DNA from: Stegostoma tigrinum | Taxonomy: Eukaryota | Length of the DNA stretch: 64,000 nt | Assembly (NCBI RefSeq): GCF_030684315.1 | Contig: NC_081399.1 | Location: 9,162,113 to 9,226,112, forward strand | Direction of reading: 5' to 3' | Shown here: one piece after another, positions 385 through 55,539 of the stretch | Layout: every line of letters begins with the position of its first letter | How positions within the stretch are numbered: the stretch's first letter is position 1 | Made by a program: the position numbers and the translations under genes | The notes under the pieces: model-generated | The model's input: only the letters and a program-made list of their open reading frames with translations | What the model was told of the DNA's origin: nothing | The model's database searches: none

Positions 385-1089
385 ACTGTTGGTGTGGGGT
401 TTAGGATAGACACTGACCTGTTGGTGTGGGGTTTAGGATAGACACTGACCTGTTGGTGTGGGGTTTAGGATAGACACTGACCTGTTGGTGTGGGGTTTAG
501 GATACACACTGACCTGTTGGTGTGGGGTTTAGGATAGACACTGACCTGTTGGTGTGGGGTTTAGGATACACACTGACCTGTTGGTGTGGGGTTTAGGATA
601 CACACTGACCTGTTGGTGTGGGGTTTAGGATACACACTGACCTGTTGGTGTGGTGTTTAGGATAGACACTGACCTGTTGGTGTGGGGTTTAGGATAGACA
701 CTGACCTGTTGGTGTGGGGTTTAGGATATACACTGACCTGTTGGTGTGGGGTTTAGGATACACACTGACCTGTTGGTGTGGGGTTTAGGATACACACTGA
801 CCTGTTGGTGTGGGGTTTAGGATACACACTGACCTGTTGGTGTGGGGTTTAGGATAGACACTGACCTGTTGGTGTGGGGTTTAGGATAGACACTGACCTG
901 TTGGTGTGGGGTTTAGGATACACACTGACCTGTTGGTGTGGGGTTTAGGATAGACACTGACCTGTTGGTGTGGGGTTTAGGATACACACTGACCTGTTGG
1001 TGTGGGGTTTAGGATAGACACTGACCTGTTGGTGTGGGGTTTAGGACCGACACTGACCTGTTGGTGTGGGGTTTAGGATACACACTGAC
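385..1089 (-). repeat. 32-bp minisatellite (~22 copies) in the gene A intron after the IgC2 exon
   Basis: Unit on the - strand is GTCAGTGTSTATCCTAAACCCCACACCAACAG; the period of 32 can be read directly. Confidence 0.97.
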
Positions 1090-1380
1090 CTTCCTGTGAT
1101 TTTGTGCAGGGTGTCTCTATCCTGAACTCAGCGCTCTCCTCACTGACAGGGTTCCACACTGTACAGCGATAGTGGATGGACTGAGACCGTCCCACTGACA
1201 CTTCCAGCTCCCCTGGGTTCCCAGAGACCTGCTCCATCGGCCCATCATTCACATTGGACCCCAGCCACGTCCAGGTATAGTGAATGTGACTTCCACTGCC
1301 CACAGAGCACCGCAGAGTCACATTACACCTCTCAGCTGAGACGTTCTCTATCAGCTCCATGGTGGGCACAGACACAGGCT
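1090..1380 (-). CDS. CD2/SLAM-family gene A, IgC2 exon
   Basis: Acceptor ttcacacag|AG and donor G|GTCAGT, phase 1/1. Protein EPVSVP..CNVTLRCSVGSG..YTW..YRCTVWNPVS..PC has the four-Cys SLAM C2 pattern. Confidence 0.92.
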
Positions 1381-1439: not shown

Positions 1440-2380
1440 CTCGAGACTCCACCCTCACTGTGGGACAGTGGCTCGGAGAGACTTCCCCCTCACTGCGGGA
1501 CACGGACAAAGAGAGACTTCCCCTCACTGAGGGGCAGGGACACAGAGAGACTCCCCCTCACTGAGGGACATGGACAGAGAGAAACTCCCCTTCACTGAGG
1601 GATAGGGGCTTGGAGAGACTCCCCCTCACTGAGGGACAGGGGCTTGGAGAGACTCCCCCTCACTGAGCGACAGGGGCACAGAGAGTCTCCCCCTCACTGT
1701 GGGTCAGGGGCACAGAGAGACTCCCCCTCACTGAGGGAGTGGGGCACAGAGAGACTCCCCCTCACTGAGGGACAGGGGCACAGAGAGACTCCCCCTCACT
1801 GAGGGAGTGGGGCACAGAGAGACTCCCCCTCACTGAGGGACAGGGGCACAGAGAGGCTCCCCCTCACTGAGGGACAGGGGCACAGGGAGACTCCCCTTCA
1901 CTGAGGGACAGGGTCACAGAGAGACTCCCCCTCACTGAGGGACAGGGACACAGACTTCCCCTCACTGAGGGACAGGGACACAGACTCCCCCTCACTGAGG
2001 GACAGGGACACAGAGAGACTCCCCCTCACTGAGGGACAGGGTCACAGAGAGACTCCCCCTCACTGAGGGACAGGGACACAGAGAGACTCCCCCTCACTGA
2101 GGGACAGGGGCACAGGGAGACTCCCCTTCACTGAGGGACAGGGTCACAGAGAGACTCCCCCTCACTGAGGGACAGGGACACAGACTCCCCCTCACTGAGG
2201 GACAGGGACACAGAGAGACTCCCCCTCACTGAGGGACAGGGACACAGACTCCCCCTCACTGAGGGACAGGGGCACAGGCCCCCCCCTCACTGAGGGACAG
2301 GGACACAGAGAGACTCCCCCTCACTGAGGGACAGAGACACGGACTCCCCCTCACTGAGGGAGAGGGGCACAGGGCCCTCT
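1440..2380. repeat. ~30-34-bp minisatellite (GAGACTCCCCCTCACTGAGGGACAGGGGCACAGA) filling gene A intron 2
   Basis: Direct tandem repetition. Confidence 0.95.
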
Positions 2381-2404: not shown

Positions 2405-2740
2405 CATAAACCTGGAGAGAAATCTCTTCTGTATAATCTTGTCTTGCTGTTACAGTAACTGTGTAAGTCCCTCCGTCACTGACCCGCAGGTTGTCTATCT
2501 GGAGGGTGTGGTTGTGGTGCAGTGTCGTTCTTCCTTCAAACTCAGTTTGTGGAAATATCTTTGATTTATTCTCACTGACATCAAATCGAGCGATGGGTAC
2601 CTGGAGAGATTCTACACTGAATTTCCAGGTGATTTCTGCACGCTGTGGGATCGGGTCGATTTCCACAAGTAACCAGACTGAGTGTCCCACGGTCCCGTTC
2701 ACAAGGAAATGTGGAATTTTAATATTCACTTCCCACTGAC
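2405..2740 (-). CDS. CD2/SLAM-family gene A, IgV exon
   Basis: Acceptor ccatttgaag|GT and donor TATG|GTGAGT, phase 1/1. Protein VNGTVGHSVWL..EITW..LQIDNLRVSDGGTYTVTV..LQVY is a V-set domain with no cysteines, as in CD2/SLAM. Confidence 0.92.
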
Positions 2741-3589: not shown

Positions 3590-6500
3590 AGGTTTATGGT
3601 TCAGGTTAGGGTTAGGAGCATGGTTAGGGTTAAGCTCACAGTTAGGATCAGGGGTAGAGACAGGTATAGGGTTAGGGTGAGGGATAGGGTTCAGGTTGGG
3701 GTTAGGGTTAGGGTTGGGTCAGGGTCCGGGATAGGGATAGGGTTCAGGTTAGGGATAGGGTTAGTGTTCGGCTTAGGGTTAGAGTTAGGGATAGGGTTAG
3801 AGTTAGGGTCAGGGATAGGGATAGGGTTCGGGTTAGGGTTAGGGTTAGGGATAGGGTTCGGGATAGAGTTTGGGATAGGGTTCGGTTTAGGGTTAGGGTT
3901 AGTGTTAGGGTCAGGGATAGGGATAGTGTTCGGCTTAGGGTTAGTGTTAGGGATAGGGTTAGGGACAGGGTTAGGGTTAGGGATAGGGTTAGGGTTAGGG
4001 TTAGGGTTAGGGTCAGGGATAGTGATAGGGTTTGGGTTAAGGTTTGGGATAGGGTTCGGTTTAGGGTTAGGGTTAGGGTTAGGGATAGGGTTAGCGTTAG
4101 GGTTATGGTTAGGGTTAGCATTAGGGTTCGGGTTCGGGTTAGGGTTTGGGGCTAGAGTTGCGGTTGGAGTTGGGTTTGGGGTTGAGGTTAGGGTTTGGGG
4201 TTGGGGTTGCAGTTGAGGCTGGGGTTTAGGTTGGGTTTCGGGTTGGGGTTGCGGTTGGGGTTGGGCTTAGGTTTAGGGTTGGGGTTTAGGGTTGTTGTGG
4301 GGTTTAGGGTTAGTGTTGGGGTTGGAGTTGGGCTTGGGTTGGGGTTGGGGTTGTGGTTAGGGTTTGGGGTTGGGGTTGGGTTTAGGGTTAGTGTTGGGGT
4401 CGGGGGTAGGGTTGGGGTTGGGTTGCGGTTGGGGTTGGGTTCCGGTTGGGGATGGGTTTGGGTTTGTGTTTAGGTTTGGGGTTTAGGGTTGGAGTTGGGT
4501 TTAGGGTTGGGGTTTAGAGTTAGGTTTGGGGTTGGGTTGGGGTTGGGTTTAGGGTTGGGATTGGGGTTGGAGTTGGGTTTAGGGTTTGGGTCGGGGCTAG
4601 GGTTAGGGTTAGGGTTAGGGTTGGGATTGAGGTTGGGGTTGGAGGTGGGATTGGGGTTGGGGTTGGGTTTAGGGTTTGTGTTGGTGTTGGGTTTAGGGTA
4701 GGGGTTGGGTTGGGGTTAGGATTAGGATTAGGGTTAGGGTTGGGATTGGTGTTAGGGCTNNNNNNNNNNNNNNNNNNNNNNNNNNNNNNNNNNNNNNNNN
4801 NNNNNNNNNNNNNNNNNNNNNNNNNNNNNNNNNNNNNNNNNNNNNNNNNNNNNNNNNNNNNNNNNNNNNNNNNNNNNNNNNNNNNNNNNNNNNNNNNNNN
4901 NNNNNNNNNNNNNNNNNNNNNNNNNNNNNNCGGGTTACGGTCAGGGTCGGGGTCCTGCGTAGGGTTGGGGTTGGGGTTGGTGTTGGGGTTGGGCTTGGGG
5001 TTGTGTTGTGGTTAGGGTTAGGGTTGGGGTTAGGGTTGGGGTTGGGTTGGGGTTTGGGTTGGGGTTAGGGCTTGGGTTTGGGTTCGGGTTAGGGTCAGGG
5101 TCAGGGTCGGGTTTAGGGTTGGGTTTGGGGTTGGGGTTGTGGTTGGGTTTGCGGTTGGTGTTGGGGTTGCGGTTAGGGTTTGGGTTTGGGTTGGGGTTGG
5201 GTTTGGGTTGGGGTTGGGTTTTGGGTTGGGGTTGGGGTTAGGGTTAATGTTGGGGTTGGGGTTAGGGTTGGGGTTGGGTTTAGGGTTGGGGTTGGGGTTG
5301 GGTTTAGGGTTGGGGTTGGGGCTAGTGTTGGGGTTGGGTTGGGGTTGGGGTTGATTTTAGGGTTGGGGTTGGGTTTGGGGTTAGGGTTAATGTTGGGGTT
5401 GGGGTTAGGGTTGGGTTTGGGGTTGGGGTTGGGTTGGGGTTGGGTTGGGGTTAGGATTAGGATTAGGGTTAGGGTTTGGGTTGGGGTTGGTGTTAGGGCT
5501 TGGGTTTGGGTTTGGGTTAGGGTCAGGGTCAGGGTCGGGGTTGGGTTTAGGGTTGGGGTTGGTGTTGGGTTTAGGGTTGGGGTTGGGTTGGGGTTGGGTT
5601 GGGGTTAGGATTAGGATTATGGTTAGGGTTAGGGTTGGGGTTGGTGTTAGGGCTTGGGTTTAGGTTCGGGTTACGGTCAGGGTCGGGGTCTGGTTTAGGG
5701 TTGGGGTTGGTGTTGGAGTTGCGGTTGGGCTTGGGGTTGGGTTGTGGTTAGGTTCGGGTTACGGTCAGGGTCGGGGTCTGGTTTAGGGTTGGGGTTGGTG
5801 TTGGGGTTGGGGTTGGGCTTGCGGTTGGGTTGTGGTTAGGGTTAGGGTTGGGGTTGGGGTTGGGGTTTGGGTTGGGTTTGGGGTTGGGGTTGGGGTTGGG
5901 GTTAGGGCTTGGGTTTGGGTTCGGGGTTGGGTTTAGGGTTGGGTTGTGGTTAGGGTTAGGGTTGGGGTTGGGGTTGGGTTTAGGGTTGGGGTTGGGGTTG
6001 GGTTTAGGGTTGGGGTTGGTGTTCGGGCCTGGGTTTGGGTTTGGGTTAGGGTCGGGGTCGGGTTTAGGGTTGGGGTTGGGGTTGGGCTTGGGGTTGGGTT
6101 GTGGCTCGCGTTAGGGTTGGGGTTGGTGTTGGGGTTGTGTTGGGGTTGTGTTGGGATTTGGGTTGGGTTTGGGGTTGGGGTTGGGGTTAGGGCTTGGGTT
6201 TAGGTTCGGGTTACGGTCAGGGTCGGGGTCTGGTTTAGGGTTGGGGTTGGTGTTGGGGTTGGACTTGGGCTTGGGGTTGGGTTGTGCTTAGGGTTAGGGT
6301 TGGGGTTGGGGTTGGGGTTTGGGTTGGATTTAGGGTTGGGGTTGGGGTTAGGGCTTGGGTTTGGGTTTGGGTTTGGGTTAGGATCAGGGTCAGGGTCGGG
6401 TTTAGGGTTGGGTTTGGAGTTGGGGTTGTGGTTGGGTTTGCGGTTGGTGTTGTGGTTAGGGTTAGGGTTTGGGTTGGGGTTGGGGTTGGGTTTGGGTTGG

Positions 6501-7222
6501 GATTGGGGTTAGGTTTTGGGTTGGGGTTGGGGTTAGGGTTAATGTTGGGGTTGGGGTTGGGTTTGGGGTTGGGGTTGGGTTTAGGGTTGGGGTTGGGCTA
6601 GGGTTGGGGTTGGGCTAGGGTTGGGGTTGGGTTGGGGTTGGGGTTGAGTTTAGGGTTGGGTTTGGNNNNNNNNNNNNNNNNNNNNNNNNNNNNNNNNNNN
6701 NNNNNNNNNNNNNNNNNNNNNNNNNNNNNNNNNNNNNNNNNNNNNNNNNNNNNNNNNNNNNNNNNNNNNNNNNNNNNNNNNNNNNNNNNNNNNNNNNNNN
6801 NNNNNNNNNNNNNNNNNNNNNNNNNNNNNNNNNNNNNNNNNTGGGGTTGGGTTTATTGTTGGGGTTTAGGGTTAGGGTTGGGGTTGCATTGGGGTTAGGG
6901 TTGGGTTTAGGGTTGGGGTTGTGGTTAGGGGTTGGGTTGGGGTTGGGGTTGGTGTTGGGTTGGGGTTGGGTTTCGGGTTGGGGTTGGGTTTAGGGTTGGG
7001 GTTGTGGTTAGGGTTTGGGGTTGGGTTTGGGGTTGGGGTTGGGTTGGGGTTGGGGTTGGGGTTGGTTTTAGGGTTGGGGTTGGGTTGGGGTTGGGTTTCG
7101 GGTTGGGTTTAGGGTTGGGTTTGGGGTTGGGTTGGGGTTGGGGTTGGGTTTAGGGTTGGGGTTGTGGTTAGGGTTTGTGGTTGGGGTTGGGTTGGGTTGG
7201 GGTTTGGGGTTAGGGTCAGGGT
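3590..7222 (+). repeat. Degenerate interstitial telomere-like array (TTAGGG/TTGGGG/ATAGGG/TCAGGG) with two N gaps
   Basis: 6-bp period with runs of perfect GGGTTA; assembly gaps at about 4760-4930 and 6666-6841. Confidence 0.93.
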
Positions 7223-12548: not shown

Positions 12549-12814
12549 TCTCCCCATCAAACACTCCCAGGAAAGGGACAGCAAGGAGTTACTCTCACTT
12601 TCTATCTTCCTCTCTGACTCCCTCTCCATCATCCTTTCCGACTGTCACTCTGTCTCACTCTCTGACTCACTGTCTATCCACCTCTCGTGGCTCACTATCT
12701 ACCTCCCTCTGTCTGTCTTTCTCTCTCCTTCTCTCTCCCCTCACTTCTCTGAGTCTCTCTATCTCCCTCTCTGACTCACTCTCAATCTCCCTCTTTATAA
12801 AAATTGTTACTCAC

Positions 12815-12881
12815 CGACACAGAAGGCAGAGATAATGAGCAGCTCACAAGCCCATCTCATATTAAAATTACACATCGCCAT
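12815..12881 (-). CDS. Gene A leader (signal peptide) exon
   Basis: ATG at 12881, MAMCNFNMRWACELLIISAFCV+G|GTGAGT. Phase 1 fits the IgV exon at 2740, and the exon is paralogous to 45930-45996. Confidence 0.85.
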
Positions 12882-39888: not shown

Positions 39889-41420
39889 ACTATGAGAAGG
39901 AGTTGGTCAAAGCAGGAGGGTGCTGTACTTAAATGTGTGAATATAAAAAACAAGGTAAATGAATTTGTAGAGTGTGAGGCAGTATTGTAAGATTGCCACT
40001 GCAGAGGTGGATGCCAGGAATCACTATCAGATGCCAAATGTTCAATCAATTTCTGTCATGCCACTGCAGTTACGAATATAACACAATGGCACTGTCGTCA
40101 TCATACATCTTGCAGGACTCACACTCAAAATATAAAAGGAGCTACAACTCTCAGCAGCTCACTGACATTTCATCGCAACAAGGAGAATGTGCACAGAGAC
40201 AGGGACTCAAGTGCAAATGGTGACTTCTTGAATGTAACTCATTTTTGAGTGCAGCCCTGCTCAAATGCTCTGGTCAGATTTCCTGGCCTCAACCAATGTG
40301 ACTGTTAACATCAAAAGGTTTTCAGCAGAAAGAAGCCACGATGCACATGATTGATGCTTCTCTTAAGCTGAACAGCATTGAGAGGCTTCATCTTAACACT
40401 CTAAGTGTTAATGCTAAATGATGGCTTAGTTATGAAAGAACTAGGTAACGAATGATGTTTGAATTAACTTAAGCTTGGAGAAGTCCAACCCACCAGATGT
40501 TACATATATTATGTTTGTGAATGGATCTGCTTCCCATTTTTGCCTCAATAGATTGAGTTTATGAACATAATCCCAGCTGCAATTGTATACAGCTTTGGTG
40601 AGACCAGACCTGGAGTACTGTGATTATTTTGCCTCATTAAAGAGGAAAGGATGTAACAATATTCTCTCAAGGGCGTAGATTGTCTCATGACATAATTCAA
40701 TTAGAAGAGGTGTACAGTCTCAGGAGTTTCGAAAAATATGAGGTGAACTCATTGTACAGAATGCACAGAACAGAGCAGATGTGCTGAATGTTCTCTCACT
40801 GCTGTAATAACTTTGTGACTCTCCATTTTAATGAAGAAGTTGGGTGTGGAGATATCCTGTCTGACACACAGGAGACAGCAAATGGGCTGAATGATCTGTT
40901 TCTGTGCTGGGAACTCTACGTCAGCCCCCCACAGACTGGGACAGAGAGGGAACAATTTTTCTCACCCATAGGACTGCTACTGCTGAGTGTAATTAGGATC
41001 TTTCCACAATGAGACTTAAAACAGACATATTGTCGTCCATCTGTGACCTACAGAAACAGACCATTCGGGCCAACAAGTTCTTGCTTGTAGTCATGTTGTA
41101 TTCTGGGGAGAGATTGATTGTTGAGGTTCGATGGTTTCATACATGTAAATATCATATGGTTTTGGATGTCTCTGGAGTTTAGAGGAATTTGAGGTGATGT
41201 CACAGAAACATGAAATTCTTATAGGGTTTGATGGAGTTGGTGGGGATGTTGAGTGTCTGTTTTATTCCCAACAAGAGAGCCTGGAACTGGGTAACAGGGA
41301 GGATGAAAAGGCAGTGGTTGCAGTATTAGGTAAGGGGTCATCGCTGATCACTATGATGAGGAAAAATATCTTCATCCATCAACAAGAAAACATTCATCAG
41401 CTAGTGAAGGTTACACTCAT

Positions 41421-41727
41421 GTGATAGAGTCTCACTGACTCTGATGCTTCCTTTCCTGAGTCCAGTTCTACAATTGCCTTGTAATCCCCACATCTCCTTC
41501 CATCTGTCAATGATTTTGAGACTGACGTTTCTGGGATGAAGATTTGTCTGTTTCTTCTCCTCCTCAGTGCCATATTTCACTTGCCCACATGTGTATGGAG
41601 CTATTTTGATGCTGTATGAATATTGTTTCCAGACAGTCTCATCATCCATCAATCTGTTTGGAACGACAAGTGGTAGGGAGACTGGTTGACCCAGGGATGT
41701 ATGCACAGAGGGACAGATGACTGTGAA
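41421..41727 (-). pseudogene. SLAM-family IgV pseudo-exon (B-like)
   Basis: Intron flank TTCCACACTGACT..TGTTCCCTCAG matches the gene B acceptor. SLGQPVSLP..VW..HPRNVSLKI then, after a frameshift, YKAIVELDSGKEASESVRL. Out of phase at the 5' end; the donor reads ATGAGT. Confidence 0.85.
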
Positions 41728-42299
41728 CTGAGGGAACACAAGGATACAGTTAGTCAGTGTGGAACAAGGCAAGCTCAGTCATGGAAGGCAATATTACATA
41801 AATAGAAAACTCCCTGTTGAATACCTCAAGAAAGGTTCACAAAGAATTACTTCTGAACTGAAGCCCCTGATAACAATGAGAGAAATTGTGGCAAGTAACT
41901 AATGCAGTGGTTAAGTAAAGAGGAGAATCATTCTGCATTGTCCCATCAAATAGTCCCAGGACAGGGACAGCACAGAATTCAATACTACATTGTCCGTATC
42001 AAACATTCCCTGGAAAAGTACAGCACAGGGTTAAATACAGAGTAAATCTCCATGTGTACTGTAACAAAAACAGAAATTGTTGGAGAAATTCAGCAGGTCT
42101 GGCAGCATCAGTGAATAGAAAGCAGAGTTAATGTGTCAGGTTCAGTGACCCTTCAAAACAGAATATTCTACTCGTACTCATATTCTAGTACTTCCATCCT
42201 TATTAATATTTTAGTGATTCGTCACTGTTTTATGTATTCTTTCCAATCTTCTGACTTGCTGCCCATCTTTATAGAATTATATGTCTTCTCTTTGAGTTT

Positions 42300-45929: not shown

Positions 45930-45996
45930 ATGGCGATGTGTCATTTGAATCTGAGACGGGCTTGTGAGCTACTTATTATCTCTGCCTTCTGTGTTG
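45930..45996 (+). CDS. Gene B leader (signal peptide) exon
   Basis: MAMCHLNLRRACELLIISAFCV+G|GTGGGT, phase 1. Confidence 0.85.
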
Positions 45997-48638: not shown

Positions 48639-48959
48639 GTCAGAGTCAGTCCTTATATCTGCCTGTGAATGGATCCCTGGGCCAGTCGGTCTCCCTACCT
48701 GTAGAGGTGCCAAACAATACGACGGTTTCTGAGGTTAGCTGGACACAATCTTCAACCAAAACCAAAATTGTTGGATTGGCAAGAGGCAGCATTGAATATT
48801 TTGGCAGTGAAGAGTACAAGAAACGGATATATTTTCATCCTGGGAACTTCAATCTCCAAATCAGTGACTTACGGAGAGAGGATACTGGGCAATATGAGGT
48901 AACTGTAACTGTAACTTCAGGAAAACAAACATTTGAGACAGTTCAACTGGATGTTTACG
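48639..48959 (+). CDS. CD2/SLAM-family gene B, IgV exon
   Basis: Acceptor ttgttccctcag|GT and donor TACG|GTGAGT, phase 1/1. VNGSLGQSVSLP..EVSW..NLQISDLRREDTGQYEVTV..LDVY; no Cys. Confidence 0.93.
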
Positions 48960-54821: not shown

Positions 54822-55106
54822 AGGCTGTGACAGGAACAAACGTCAACATTGTAAACATTGCTAAGTGCAATGTGACGCTGAGGTGCTCCGTGAACGCAGG
54901 CAGTAACGTCAGCTTCACCTGGTGGAGGGGACAGGAAGCGTTGGGAAATGAGCTCACCCATCGTGTCTTTGAAAATGGAGAGAGTTCACAGCTTTTGTTC
55001 ACAGCAGAGCCCAATGAGAGAGCTGTGAGATGTGAGGCCAGCAATCCAGCCAGTCACAAAACGGCAGAGATCAAACTGGAAGATGTCTGTAAGGGAAGTG
55101 TATCTG
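54822..55106 (+). CDS. CD2/SLAM-family gene B, IgC2 exon
   Basis: Acceptor aatttcag|AG and donor TCTG|GTGAGT, phase 1/1. CNVTLRCSVNAGSNVSFTW..RCEASNPAS..DVC, four Cys. Confidence 0.92.
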
Positions 55107-55539
55107 GTGAGTGTCACAGAAAGCAATAAGCTACTGCATTCAGGCATAAAGCCTGTCCTGGGAGTGTTTACTGGGGGACAGTGTAGAGGGAGCTTTACTC
55201 TGTATCTAATCTCGTGCTGTCCCTGTCCTGGGAGTGTTTGGTGGGGCCAGTGTAGAGAGAACTTCACTCTGTATCTAACCCATCTGTCCCTGTCCTAGCA
55301 GTGCTTAATTGGGACAGTGTAGAGAAAGCTTTACTCTGTATCTGACCCCCATGCTGTCCCTGTCCTGGGAGTGTTTGATAGGGGACATTGTAGAGGGAGC
55401 TTTACTCTGGATCCTACTCCATCCTGTCCCTGTGCTGGGAGTGTTTGATGGGGGACAGTTTAGAGAGAGCTTTACTCTGTATGTAATCCCATGCTGTCCC
55501 TGTGCTGGAAGTGTTTCGTGGGGCATTGTAGAGGGAGTG

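What the first reader, a model, noticed from the sequence alone, without database searches (positions are those of the whole stretch)
385..1090. Minisatellite built from a splice donor: ~22 tandem AG|GTCAGT mini-intron-like units directly after the gene A IgC2 exon
Seen in sequence: on the transcribed (-) strand the first unit begins exactly at the exon's donor (AAG|GTCAGT). Each 32-nt unit reads GTCAGT...CCTAAAC...CAACAG, so every junction recreates CAG|GTCAGT downstream of a branch-point-like CTAAAC. Inference: this is an array of competing 5' splice sites or recursive-splice points. Use of an internal donor would extend the exon into the in-frame stop at 1073-1075 (…EGQCVS*), giving a TM-less soluble V-C2 protein or an NMD target. 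Copy number could tune that ratio. Caveats: the polypyrimidine tract is weak and 32 nt is below the usual minimum intron size.
Basis: partly seen in the sequence, partly recalled or inferred. Interest (0 to 1): 0.7.

Follow-up and report, generated by a model that had tools for sequence, protein, structure and literature searches.

The report
Repeated splice donor in shark SLAM
A 32-base piece starting at the splice signal after an exon of a shark immune-receptor gene is repeated 22 times, but the assembled transcripts examined leave the exon at the first signal, so the spare copies are likely silent, an oddity already known from several human and lancelet genes.

Summary
The array is real: 22 exact 32-nt units (1089-386, minus strand) begin at the donor of the C2 exon of a zebra-shark SLAM-family gene (protein P0004) and give 21 extra CAG|GTCAGT sites; the in-frame TAA at 1075-1073 is confirmed. 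The interpretation mostly fails. In 4 laid runs that behave as spliced RNA, contigs leave the exon at 1090/1089 in 3 and none leaves at 1058 or 1026. Only one of these contigs passes the tool's bridging rule, and contigs hide rare forms. The unit is a poor acceptor (3 T, longest pyrimidine run 4, against 7-11 T and runs of 6-9 in four real acceptors), so mini-introns and recursive splicing are unlikely. Every internal donor gives the same truncated protein. This is a new member of a known kind: human F7, CBS, 6-16, LMNB2 and PDGF donor-spanning minisatellites and amphioxus 'mirages'. In F7 minigenes only the first donor is used, whatever the copy number (PMC1557585). The scan has found this kind before on other DNA (28 notes, at least 13 genomes). 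Low interest.

The parts
386..1091 (-). Minisatellite: 22 x 32-nt units (1089-386) plus the exon's last AG; 21 internal CAG|GTCAGT pseudo-donors
1084..1092 (-). Authentic donor AAG|GTCAGT of the C2 exon, phase 1; last exon base 1090
   Evidence: P0004, P0001-P0003 all change exon after TKSQE/TQSQK; contig loose ends at 1090/1089
1073..1075 (-). In-frame TAA in unit 1, reached by read-through or by any internal donor (EGQCVS*)
1026..1057 (-). Unit 2, a unique variant at 1047-1048 that marks the exon-proximal copy; its donor bases are unchanged
1090..1380 (-). IgC2 exon of gene A (291 nt)
   Evidence: Pfam Ig_3/Ig_2; identical to P0004; covered by contigs in 4 of 4 runs
2405..2740 (-). IgV exon of gene A (336 nt)
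   Evidence: Pfam V-set; its 3' end is the loose end at 1381 in 4 of 4 runs
12815..12881 (-). Leader exon of gene A in the P0004 model
   Evidence: tblastn of P0004
1..352 (.). High-copy interspersed repeat fragment just past the array (LINE-like by recall; no Pfam hit); intronic
   Evidence: 208-321 contigs per run laid, most 90-95% alike, with loose ends at 352; no Pfam family
1443..2372 (.). Unrelated 34-nt minisatellite filling the V-C2 intron (context)

Best explanation
This is a 22-copy, 32-nt minisatellite that repeats the start of the intron behind the C2 exon of a shark SLAM-family gene; it likely arose by slippage between two AG dinucleotides 32 nt apart, and its 21 extra donors are likely left unused because the exon is cut at the first one. 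Shown: the array, the AG at both edges, the identical donor hexamers, the stop in unit 1, and contigs that leave the exon at 1090/1089. Inferred: that the AG microhomology seeded the duplication (it explains why each junction rebuilds AG|GT and why each unit ends in AG), that exon definition or 5'-to-3' scanning picks the first donor as in human F7, and that the array drifts nearly neutrally in a repeat-rich gene. Any leak would give one truncated V-C2 message, likely mostly degraded.
For: (4 of 6 listed runs): the V-C2 join is bridged in 4 of 4. Loose ends lie at 1089/1090 in X2, X3 and X4; none lies at 1058 or 1026, and there are no joints. The X3 loose end reads as the next residues of P0004 (ALSGWTKHAT; read by hand). 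Repeat contigs (X1, X3, X4) are 62-nt repeat-only pieces carrying majority-unit letters at 1048/1049, not unit 2's, and none is joined to the exon; a 2-base AG continues the period into the exon; the acceptor features of the unit are poor; arrays fill 67% of gene A's span (8414 nt) and 24% of the window; 5 of 5 gene A splice sites lie within 160 nt of an array, against 12% of non-array positions within 200 nt. PMC1557585: in F7 only the most upstream donor is used, pseudo-sites improved up to CV 91 do not compete, and 1-12 monomers give the same pattern. [quoted passage not shown]
Against: Only contigs were available, and they show presence, not absence. By the tool's 31-letter rule only X2's contig bridges 1090; the X3 and X4 contigs overlap the exon by 30 letters and could partly come from a paralogue. 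X1's exon contig ends at 1089 on a G that fits the intron. The runs are not on record as RNA (inferred from the V-C2 join). Repeat-unit contigs exist in X1, X3, X4 and X5, so repeat sequence is present in these runs. Internal donors pair with U1 better than the real one, and perfect pseudo-sites did win 70-90% in F7. In 6-16 and CBS two proximal pseudo-sites are used. Orthologous introns could not be read, so neutrality is untested.
Confidence: 0.78

Rival explanations
1. Leaky proximal pseudo-donors, as in human 6-16 and CBS: donors of units 2 and 3 are used in a noticeable minority of transcripts and give a truncated V-C2 message. If the next exon is the last, these two (15 and 47 nt past the stop) would escape decay and make a soluble protein.
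For: Internal donors have one more U1 pair than the real one. Precedent in 6-16 and CBS (PMC1557585 Introduction). Stop-to-junction distances of 15 and 47 nt are under the 50-55 nt rule (own knowledge). Contigs would hide a minor form.
Against: 0 of 4 runs show a loose end at 1058 or 1026, and repeat contigs lack unit 2's letters. Donors from unit 4 on lie 79 nt or more past the stop, so copies 4-22 would add no soluble protein. This reading gives copy number no role.
Confidence: 0.14
2. Recursive-splice ladder or mini-introns: a unit's CAG is used as acceptor, rebuilding AAG|GTCAGT for a second cut.
For: Every junction is YAG|GT (21 of 21). An A at -16 lies within the 10-60 nt branch distance quoted in PMC10156609. 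The end product would be invisible in mature RNA.
Against: Positions -23 to -4 hold 3 T and a longest pyrimidine run of 4, against 7-11 T and runs of 6-9 in 4 of 4 real acceptors; there is no yUnAy match, against 4 of 4. 32 nt is below vertebrate intron size (own knowledge). The terminal AG is explained by the duplication itself.
Confidence: 0.03
3. Dose-dependent intronic regulator: the CA-rich units bind an hnRNP L-type protein or soak up U1 and change C2-exon inclusion or message level without being cut.
For: Two CACA/ACAC words per unit (motif recalled). Human tandem repeats can alter splicing in cis (PMC10078293, abstract and passages).
Against: No direct evidence here. The C2 exon is included in contigs of 4 of 4 runs. 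F7 monomer number had no effect. The region does not fold unusually (z -0.42).
Confidence: 0.05

Closest known systems
Human F7 intron 7 37-bp VNTR (Borensztajn et al. 2006, PMC1557585; parts 1-3 of 6 read: abstract, Introduction, most of Results)
   Same: The first monomer spans the exon-intron boundary, the donor is repeated in the intron, and the first donor is the one seen used.
   Different: 32 nt x 22 against 37 nt x 5-9. Only 2 exon bases lie in the unit (4 in F7), so the copies differ from the real donor at -3 and are slightly stronger. Length polymorphism is not shown here.
Human 6-16, CBS intron 13, LAMIN B2 and PDGF intron 4 minisatellites (known to me only through the Introduction of PMC1557585)
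   Same: 10-25 reiterated donors; copy number like ours.
   Different: 6-16 and CBS use two proximal pseudo-sites, which is not seen in the contigs here; LMNB2 and PDGF use only the authentic site, as here.
Amphioxus 'mirages' in Adh3, BflGb6 and BflGb9 (PMC3087553; passages read)
   Same: Tandem duplications of an exon-intron boundary with AG/GT signals that do not disturb regular splicing.
   Different: Those units hold more exon sequence and are 10-160 bp; this one is almost wholly intronic and lies in a shark.
Recursive splice sites (PMC10156609; passages read)
   Same: YAG|GT juxtaposition.
   Different: No usable pyrimidine tract, sites packed every 32 nt right beside an annotated donor, and no lariat evidence.

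Membership tests
Donor-spanning minisatellite (F7 type / mirage) | Tandem array whose first monomer spans an exon-intron boundary | tested here: met
   Period runs 2 bases (AG) into the C2 exon; units 1089-386
Donor-spanning minisatellite (F7 type / mirage) | Donor sequence reiterated in the intron | tested here: met
   21 internal CAG|GTCAGT
Donor-spanning minisatellite (F7 type / mirage) | The boundary is a real, used splice donor | tested here: met
   Loose ends at 1089/1090 in 3 of 4 runs, one contig bridging by the 31-letter rule; P0004 model
Donor-spanning minisatellite (F7 type / mirage) | Pseudo-donors silent, or only the proximal ones used | tested here: inconclusive
   0 of 4 runs with exits at 1058/1026, but contigs drop rare forms
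Donor-spanning minisatellite (F7 type / mirage) | Length varies between alleles | not testable with these tools
   No genome held; contigs collapse the array to 62-nt pieces
Recursive splice site | YAG|GT juxtaposition | tested here: met
Recursive splice site | Working 3' splice site with pyrimidine tract and branch point | tested here: not met
   3 T, run of 4, no yUnAy, against 4 of 4 real acceptors. The Y5+N0-4YAGGT motif is absent too, but 3 of 4 real acceptors also fail it, so that test does not discriminate
Recursive splice site | Lariat or intermediate evidence | not testable with these tools
   Only contigs were served
SLAM/CD2 family (host gene) | Leader, IgV, IgC2, then a transmembrane segment | tested here: met
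   Pfam V-set and Ig_3/Ig_2; P0004 is named SLAM family member 5-like and has a hydrophobic stretch after C2, encoded outside the window

The most novel reading that the evidence does not exclude
In some tissue or on immune activation the stronger donors of units 2 and 3 are chosen, the message escapes decay, and the shark secretes a soluble V-C2 decoy of this SLAM receptor; array length or unit order sets how much.
Probability: 0.06. Interest if true: 0.5.

Novelty: new member of a known kind. Interest (0 to 1): 0.15.

Why it matters
As it stands, little: it adds a shark immune gene to a list of donor-spanning minisatellites known from human and amphioxus genes. One feature has modest value. 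The 21 copies are slightly better U1 matches than the real donor, so the locus is a natural test of first-donor selection outside mammals. It would matter more if the proximal copies made a regulated soluble SLAM decoy, for which there is no sign.

Tried and rejected
Whole genome: none held, so the downstream exons, intron length, paralogue loci and allele lengths were not read. Run search: no RNA holder listed on record; six runs of unknown kind from two studies. X5 and X6 were never laid on the exon, and the whole array was never laid. (X3-X6 on 1-460): the loose-end table was cut (24 rows shown, 133 not), and none of those shown lies in the array, so it is inconclusive for internal donors. 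Bin 369-384 has no cover in 4 of 4 runs, which would be expected if the last unit's AG is not used as an acceptor, but a hole proves nothing. Contig depths were not used to estimate read-through. The minimal recursive motif finds 0 hits in the array but also misses 3 of 4 real acceptors, so it was dropped as a discriminator. MaxEntScan was not available; U1 pairing was used instead. No AATAAA or ATTAAA lies in 1-1090, only one CATAAA at 340, so there is no sign of an intronic poly(A) site within the window. Folding of 960-1130 gave no signal (z -0.42). The unit has no other copy in the window; the best matches (20-23 of 32) are low-complexity telomere-like tracts. Paper searches: (VNTR splicing with UPF3A) gave only ABCA7; one search gave nothing on shark SLAM isoforms among the 15 of 403 listed (listings only).

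Full report
Observation. TRF finds a 32-nt array at 386-1091 with 22.1 copies, 97% matches and no indels. On the minus strand it resolves into exactly 22 units from 1089 to 386: two majority types that differ at one base (10 and 9 copies) and three singletons, units 2, 12 and 14. Unit 1 begins at AAG|GTCAGT and 21 internal junctions read CAG|GTCAGT. Read-through gives EGQCVS and the TAA at 1075-1073, which lies before the first internal donor, so all internal donors would give the same protein.

Host gene. The exons at 12815-12881, 2405-2740 and 1090-1380 encode leader, IgV and IgC2 and match P0004 residue for residue. P0004 is XP_059498772.1, SLAM family member 5-like of Stegostoma tigrinum. 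Its model, its paralogue P0001 and the whale-shark and epaulette-shark relatives all continue after the C2 exon into a hydrophobic segment. That exon lies outside the window, and no genome is held.

Origin (inferred). The exon's last two bases AG continue the period, and each unit ends in AG; nothing after the last unit continues it. A slip between two AGs 32 nt apart would rebuild AG|GT at every junction and leave AG at each unit's end. This accounts for the 'mini-intron' look without any function. The rarity of an 8/9 donor match in random 32-mers (9 of 4325) and among the window's arrays (1 of 19) shows only that the unit derives from the real donor. Arrays fill 67% of gene A's span and 24% of the window; 5 of 5 gene A splice sites and 2 of 5 gene B sites lie within 160 nt of one, against 12% of non-array positions within 200 nt. 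An array at an exon edge is the local norm.

Signal strength. Internal donors pair with the U1 end (motif recalled) at 9 of 11 positions, -9.9 kcal/mol; the real donor at 8 of 11, -8.4, the weakest of the six real donors scored. They are therefore credible pseudo-donors. As acceptors the units are poor: 3 T and a longest pyrimidine run of 4 in positions -23 to -4, and no yUnAy (recalled consensus), against 7-11 T, runs of 6-9 and a match in 4 of 4 real acceptors. The minimal recursive motif of PMC10156609 (passages) is absent, but 3 of 4 real acceptors fail it too, so I give it no weight.

Transcript evidence. Six runs from two studies hold the C2 exon; none is on record as RNA. Four of the six were laid on 1010-1442. 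In 4 of 4, a contig joins C2 to the end of the V exon with 34-130 loose letters, so they behave as spliced RNA. At the donor, X2 has a loose end at 1089, X3 and X4 at 1090, and X1's contig stops at 1089. No loose end or joint falls at 1058 or 1026. X3's loose letters read, by hand, as ALSGWTKHAT, the residues of P0004 and not of P0001. Against over-reading: only X2's contig bridges the donor by the tool's 31-letter rule, since the X3 and X4 contigs overlap the exon by 30. X1, X3 and X4 also hold a 62-nt repeat-only contig with majority-unit letters at 1048/1049 and no link to the exon. This fits collapsed unspliced RNA or a copy of the array elsewhere, not a message ending in unit 2. Contigs drop rare variants, so minor use stays open. 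A second lay (X3-X6 on 1-460) was swamped by a high-copy repeat at 1-352 and its loose-end table was cut; it adds nothing firm.

Consequence of a leak. The donors of units 2, 3 and 4 lie 15, 47 and 79 nt past the stop. By the 50-55 nt rule (own knowledge) only the first two could escape decay, and only if the next exon is the last. Copies 4-22 could add only decay substrates, so copy number is a poor dial for a soluble form.

Known kinds. PMC1557585 (parts 1-3 of 6) describes the same layout in human F7. Its Introduction lists 6-16 and CBS (two proximal pseudo-sites used) and LAMIN B2 and PDGF (authentic site only). In F7 minigenes the most upstream site was used exclusively against pseudo-sites up to CV 91, perfect sites took 70-90%, and 1-12 monomers gave the same pattern. 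PMC3087553 (passages) describes amphioxus mirages that do not interfere with splicing. PMC10078293 (abstract start and passages) shows that human tandem repeats can alter splicing, which keeps a regulatory rival alive. No supplements were read. The scan's own notes list 28 findings with these words in at least 13 genomes (8 shown) and one more in this genome; these are unchecked and served only as leads.

Verdict. Real, correctly located, and ordinary: a new member of the donor-spanning minisatellites, probably silent (0.78). A proximal leak is the main rival (0.14), then a dose-dependent regulator (0.05) and recursion (0.03). Interest 0.15. The more promising route to a membrane-less isoform seen here is unrelated to the array: X2's contig joins the C2 exon to an exon that ends in a stop after nine codons.

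Noticed in passing
window 1090 donor; runs X2, X3, X4: At least two, probably three, different sequences are joined at the same donor. X3 continues into the P0004 transmembrane exon. X2's single contig (depth 62, bridging) continues into an exon outside the window that reads GQTGLCTVF then stop, a candidate membrane-less V-C2 isoform independent of the array. X4's mixed consensus (agreement 0.65) and a 31-nt X3 contig point to a third exon. Paralogue chimeras are not excluded.
   Followed up: partly
window 45930-45996, 48639-48959, 54822-55106 (+): Second SLAM-family gene (gene B), divergently oriented, about 33-36% identical in V and C2 but with a leader 83% identical to gene A's; no later exon was identified.
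   Followed up: partly
window 12815-12881 versus P0001-P0003: Gene A's leader resembles gene B's and not the leaders of its closer relatives P0001-P0003, a possible leader or promoter swap or a gene-model error.
   Followed up: no
window 41404-41778 (-): An open stretch that by eye resembles a decayed SLAM V exon; no Pfam hit and no tblastn hit.
   Followed up: partly
window 3604-7216: About 3.6 kb of degenerate telomere-like 6-mer repeats with two N gaps inside gene A's first intron.
   Followed up: no
window 12594-12794, 1443-2372, 55152-55537: Other arrays start 20, 32 and 45 nt behind donors; tandem arrays cluster at exon edges in this locus.
   Followed up: partly
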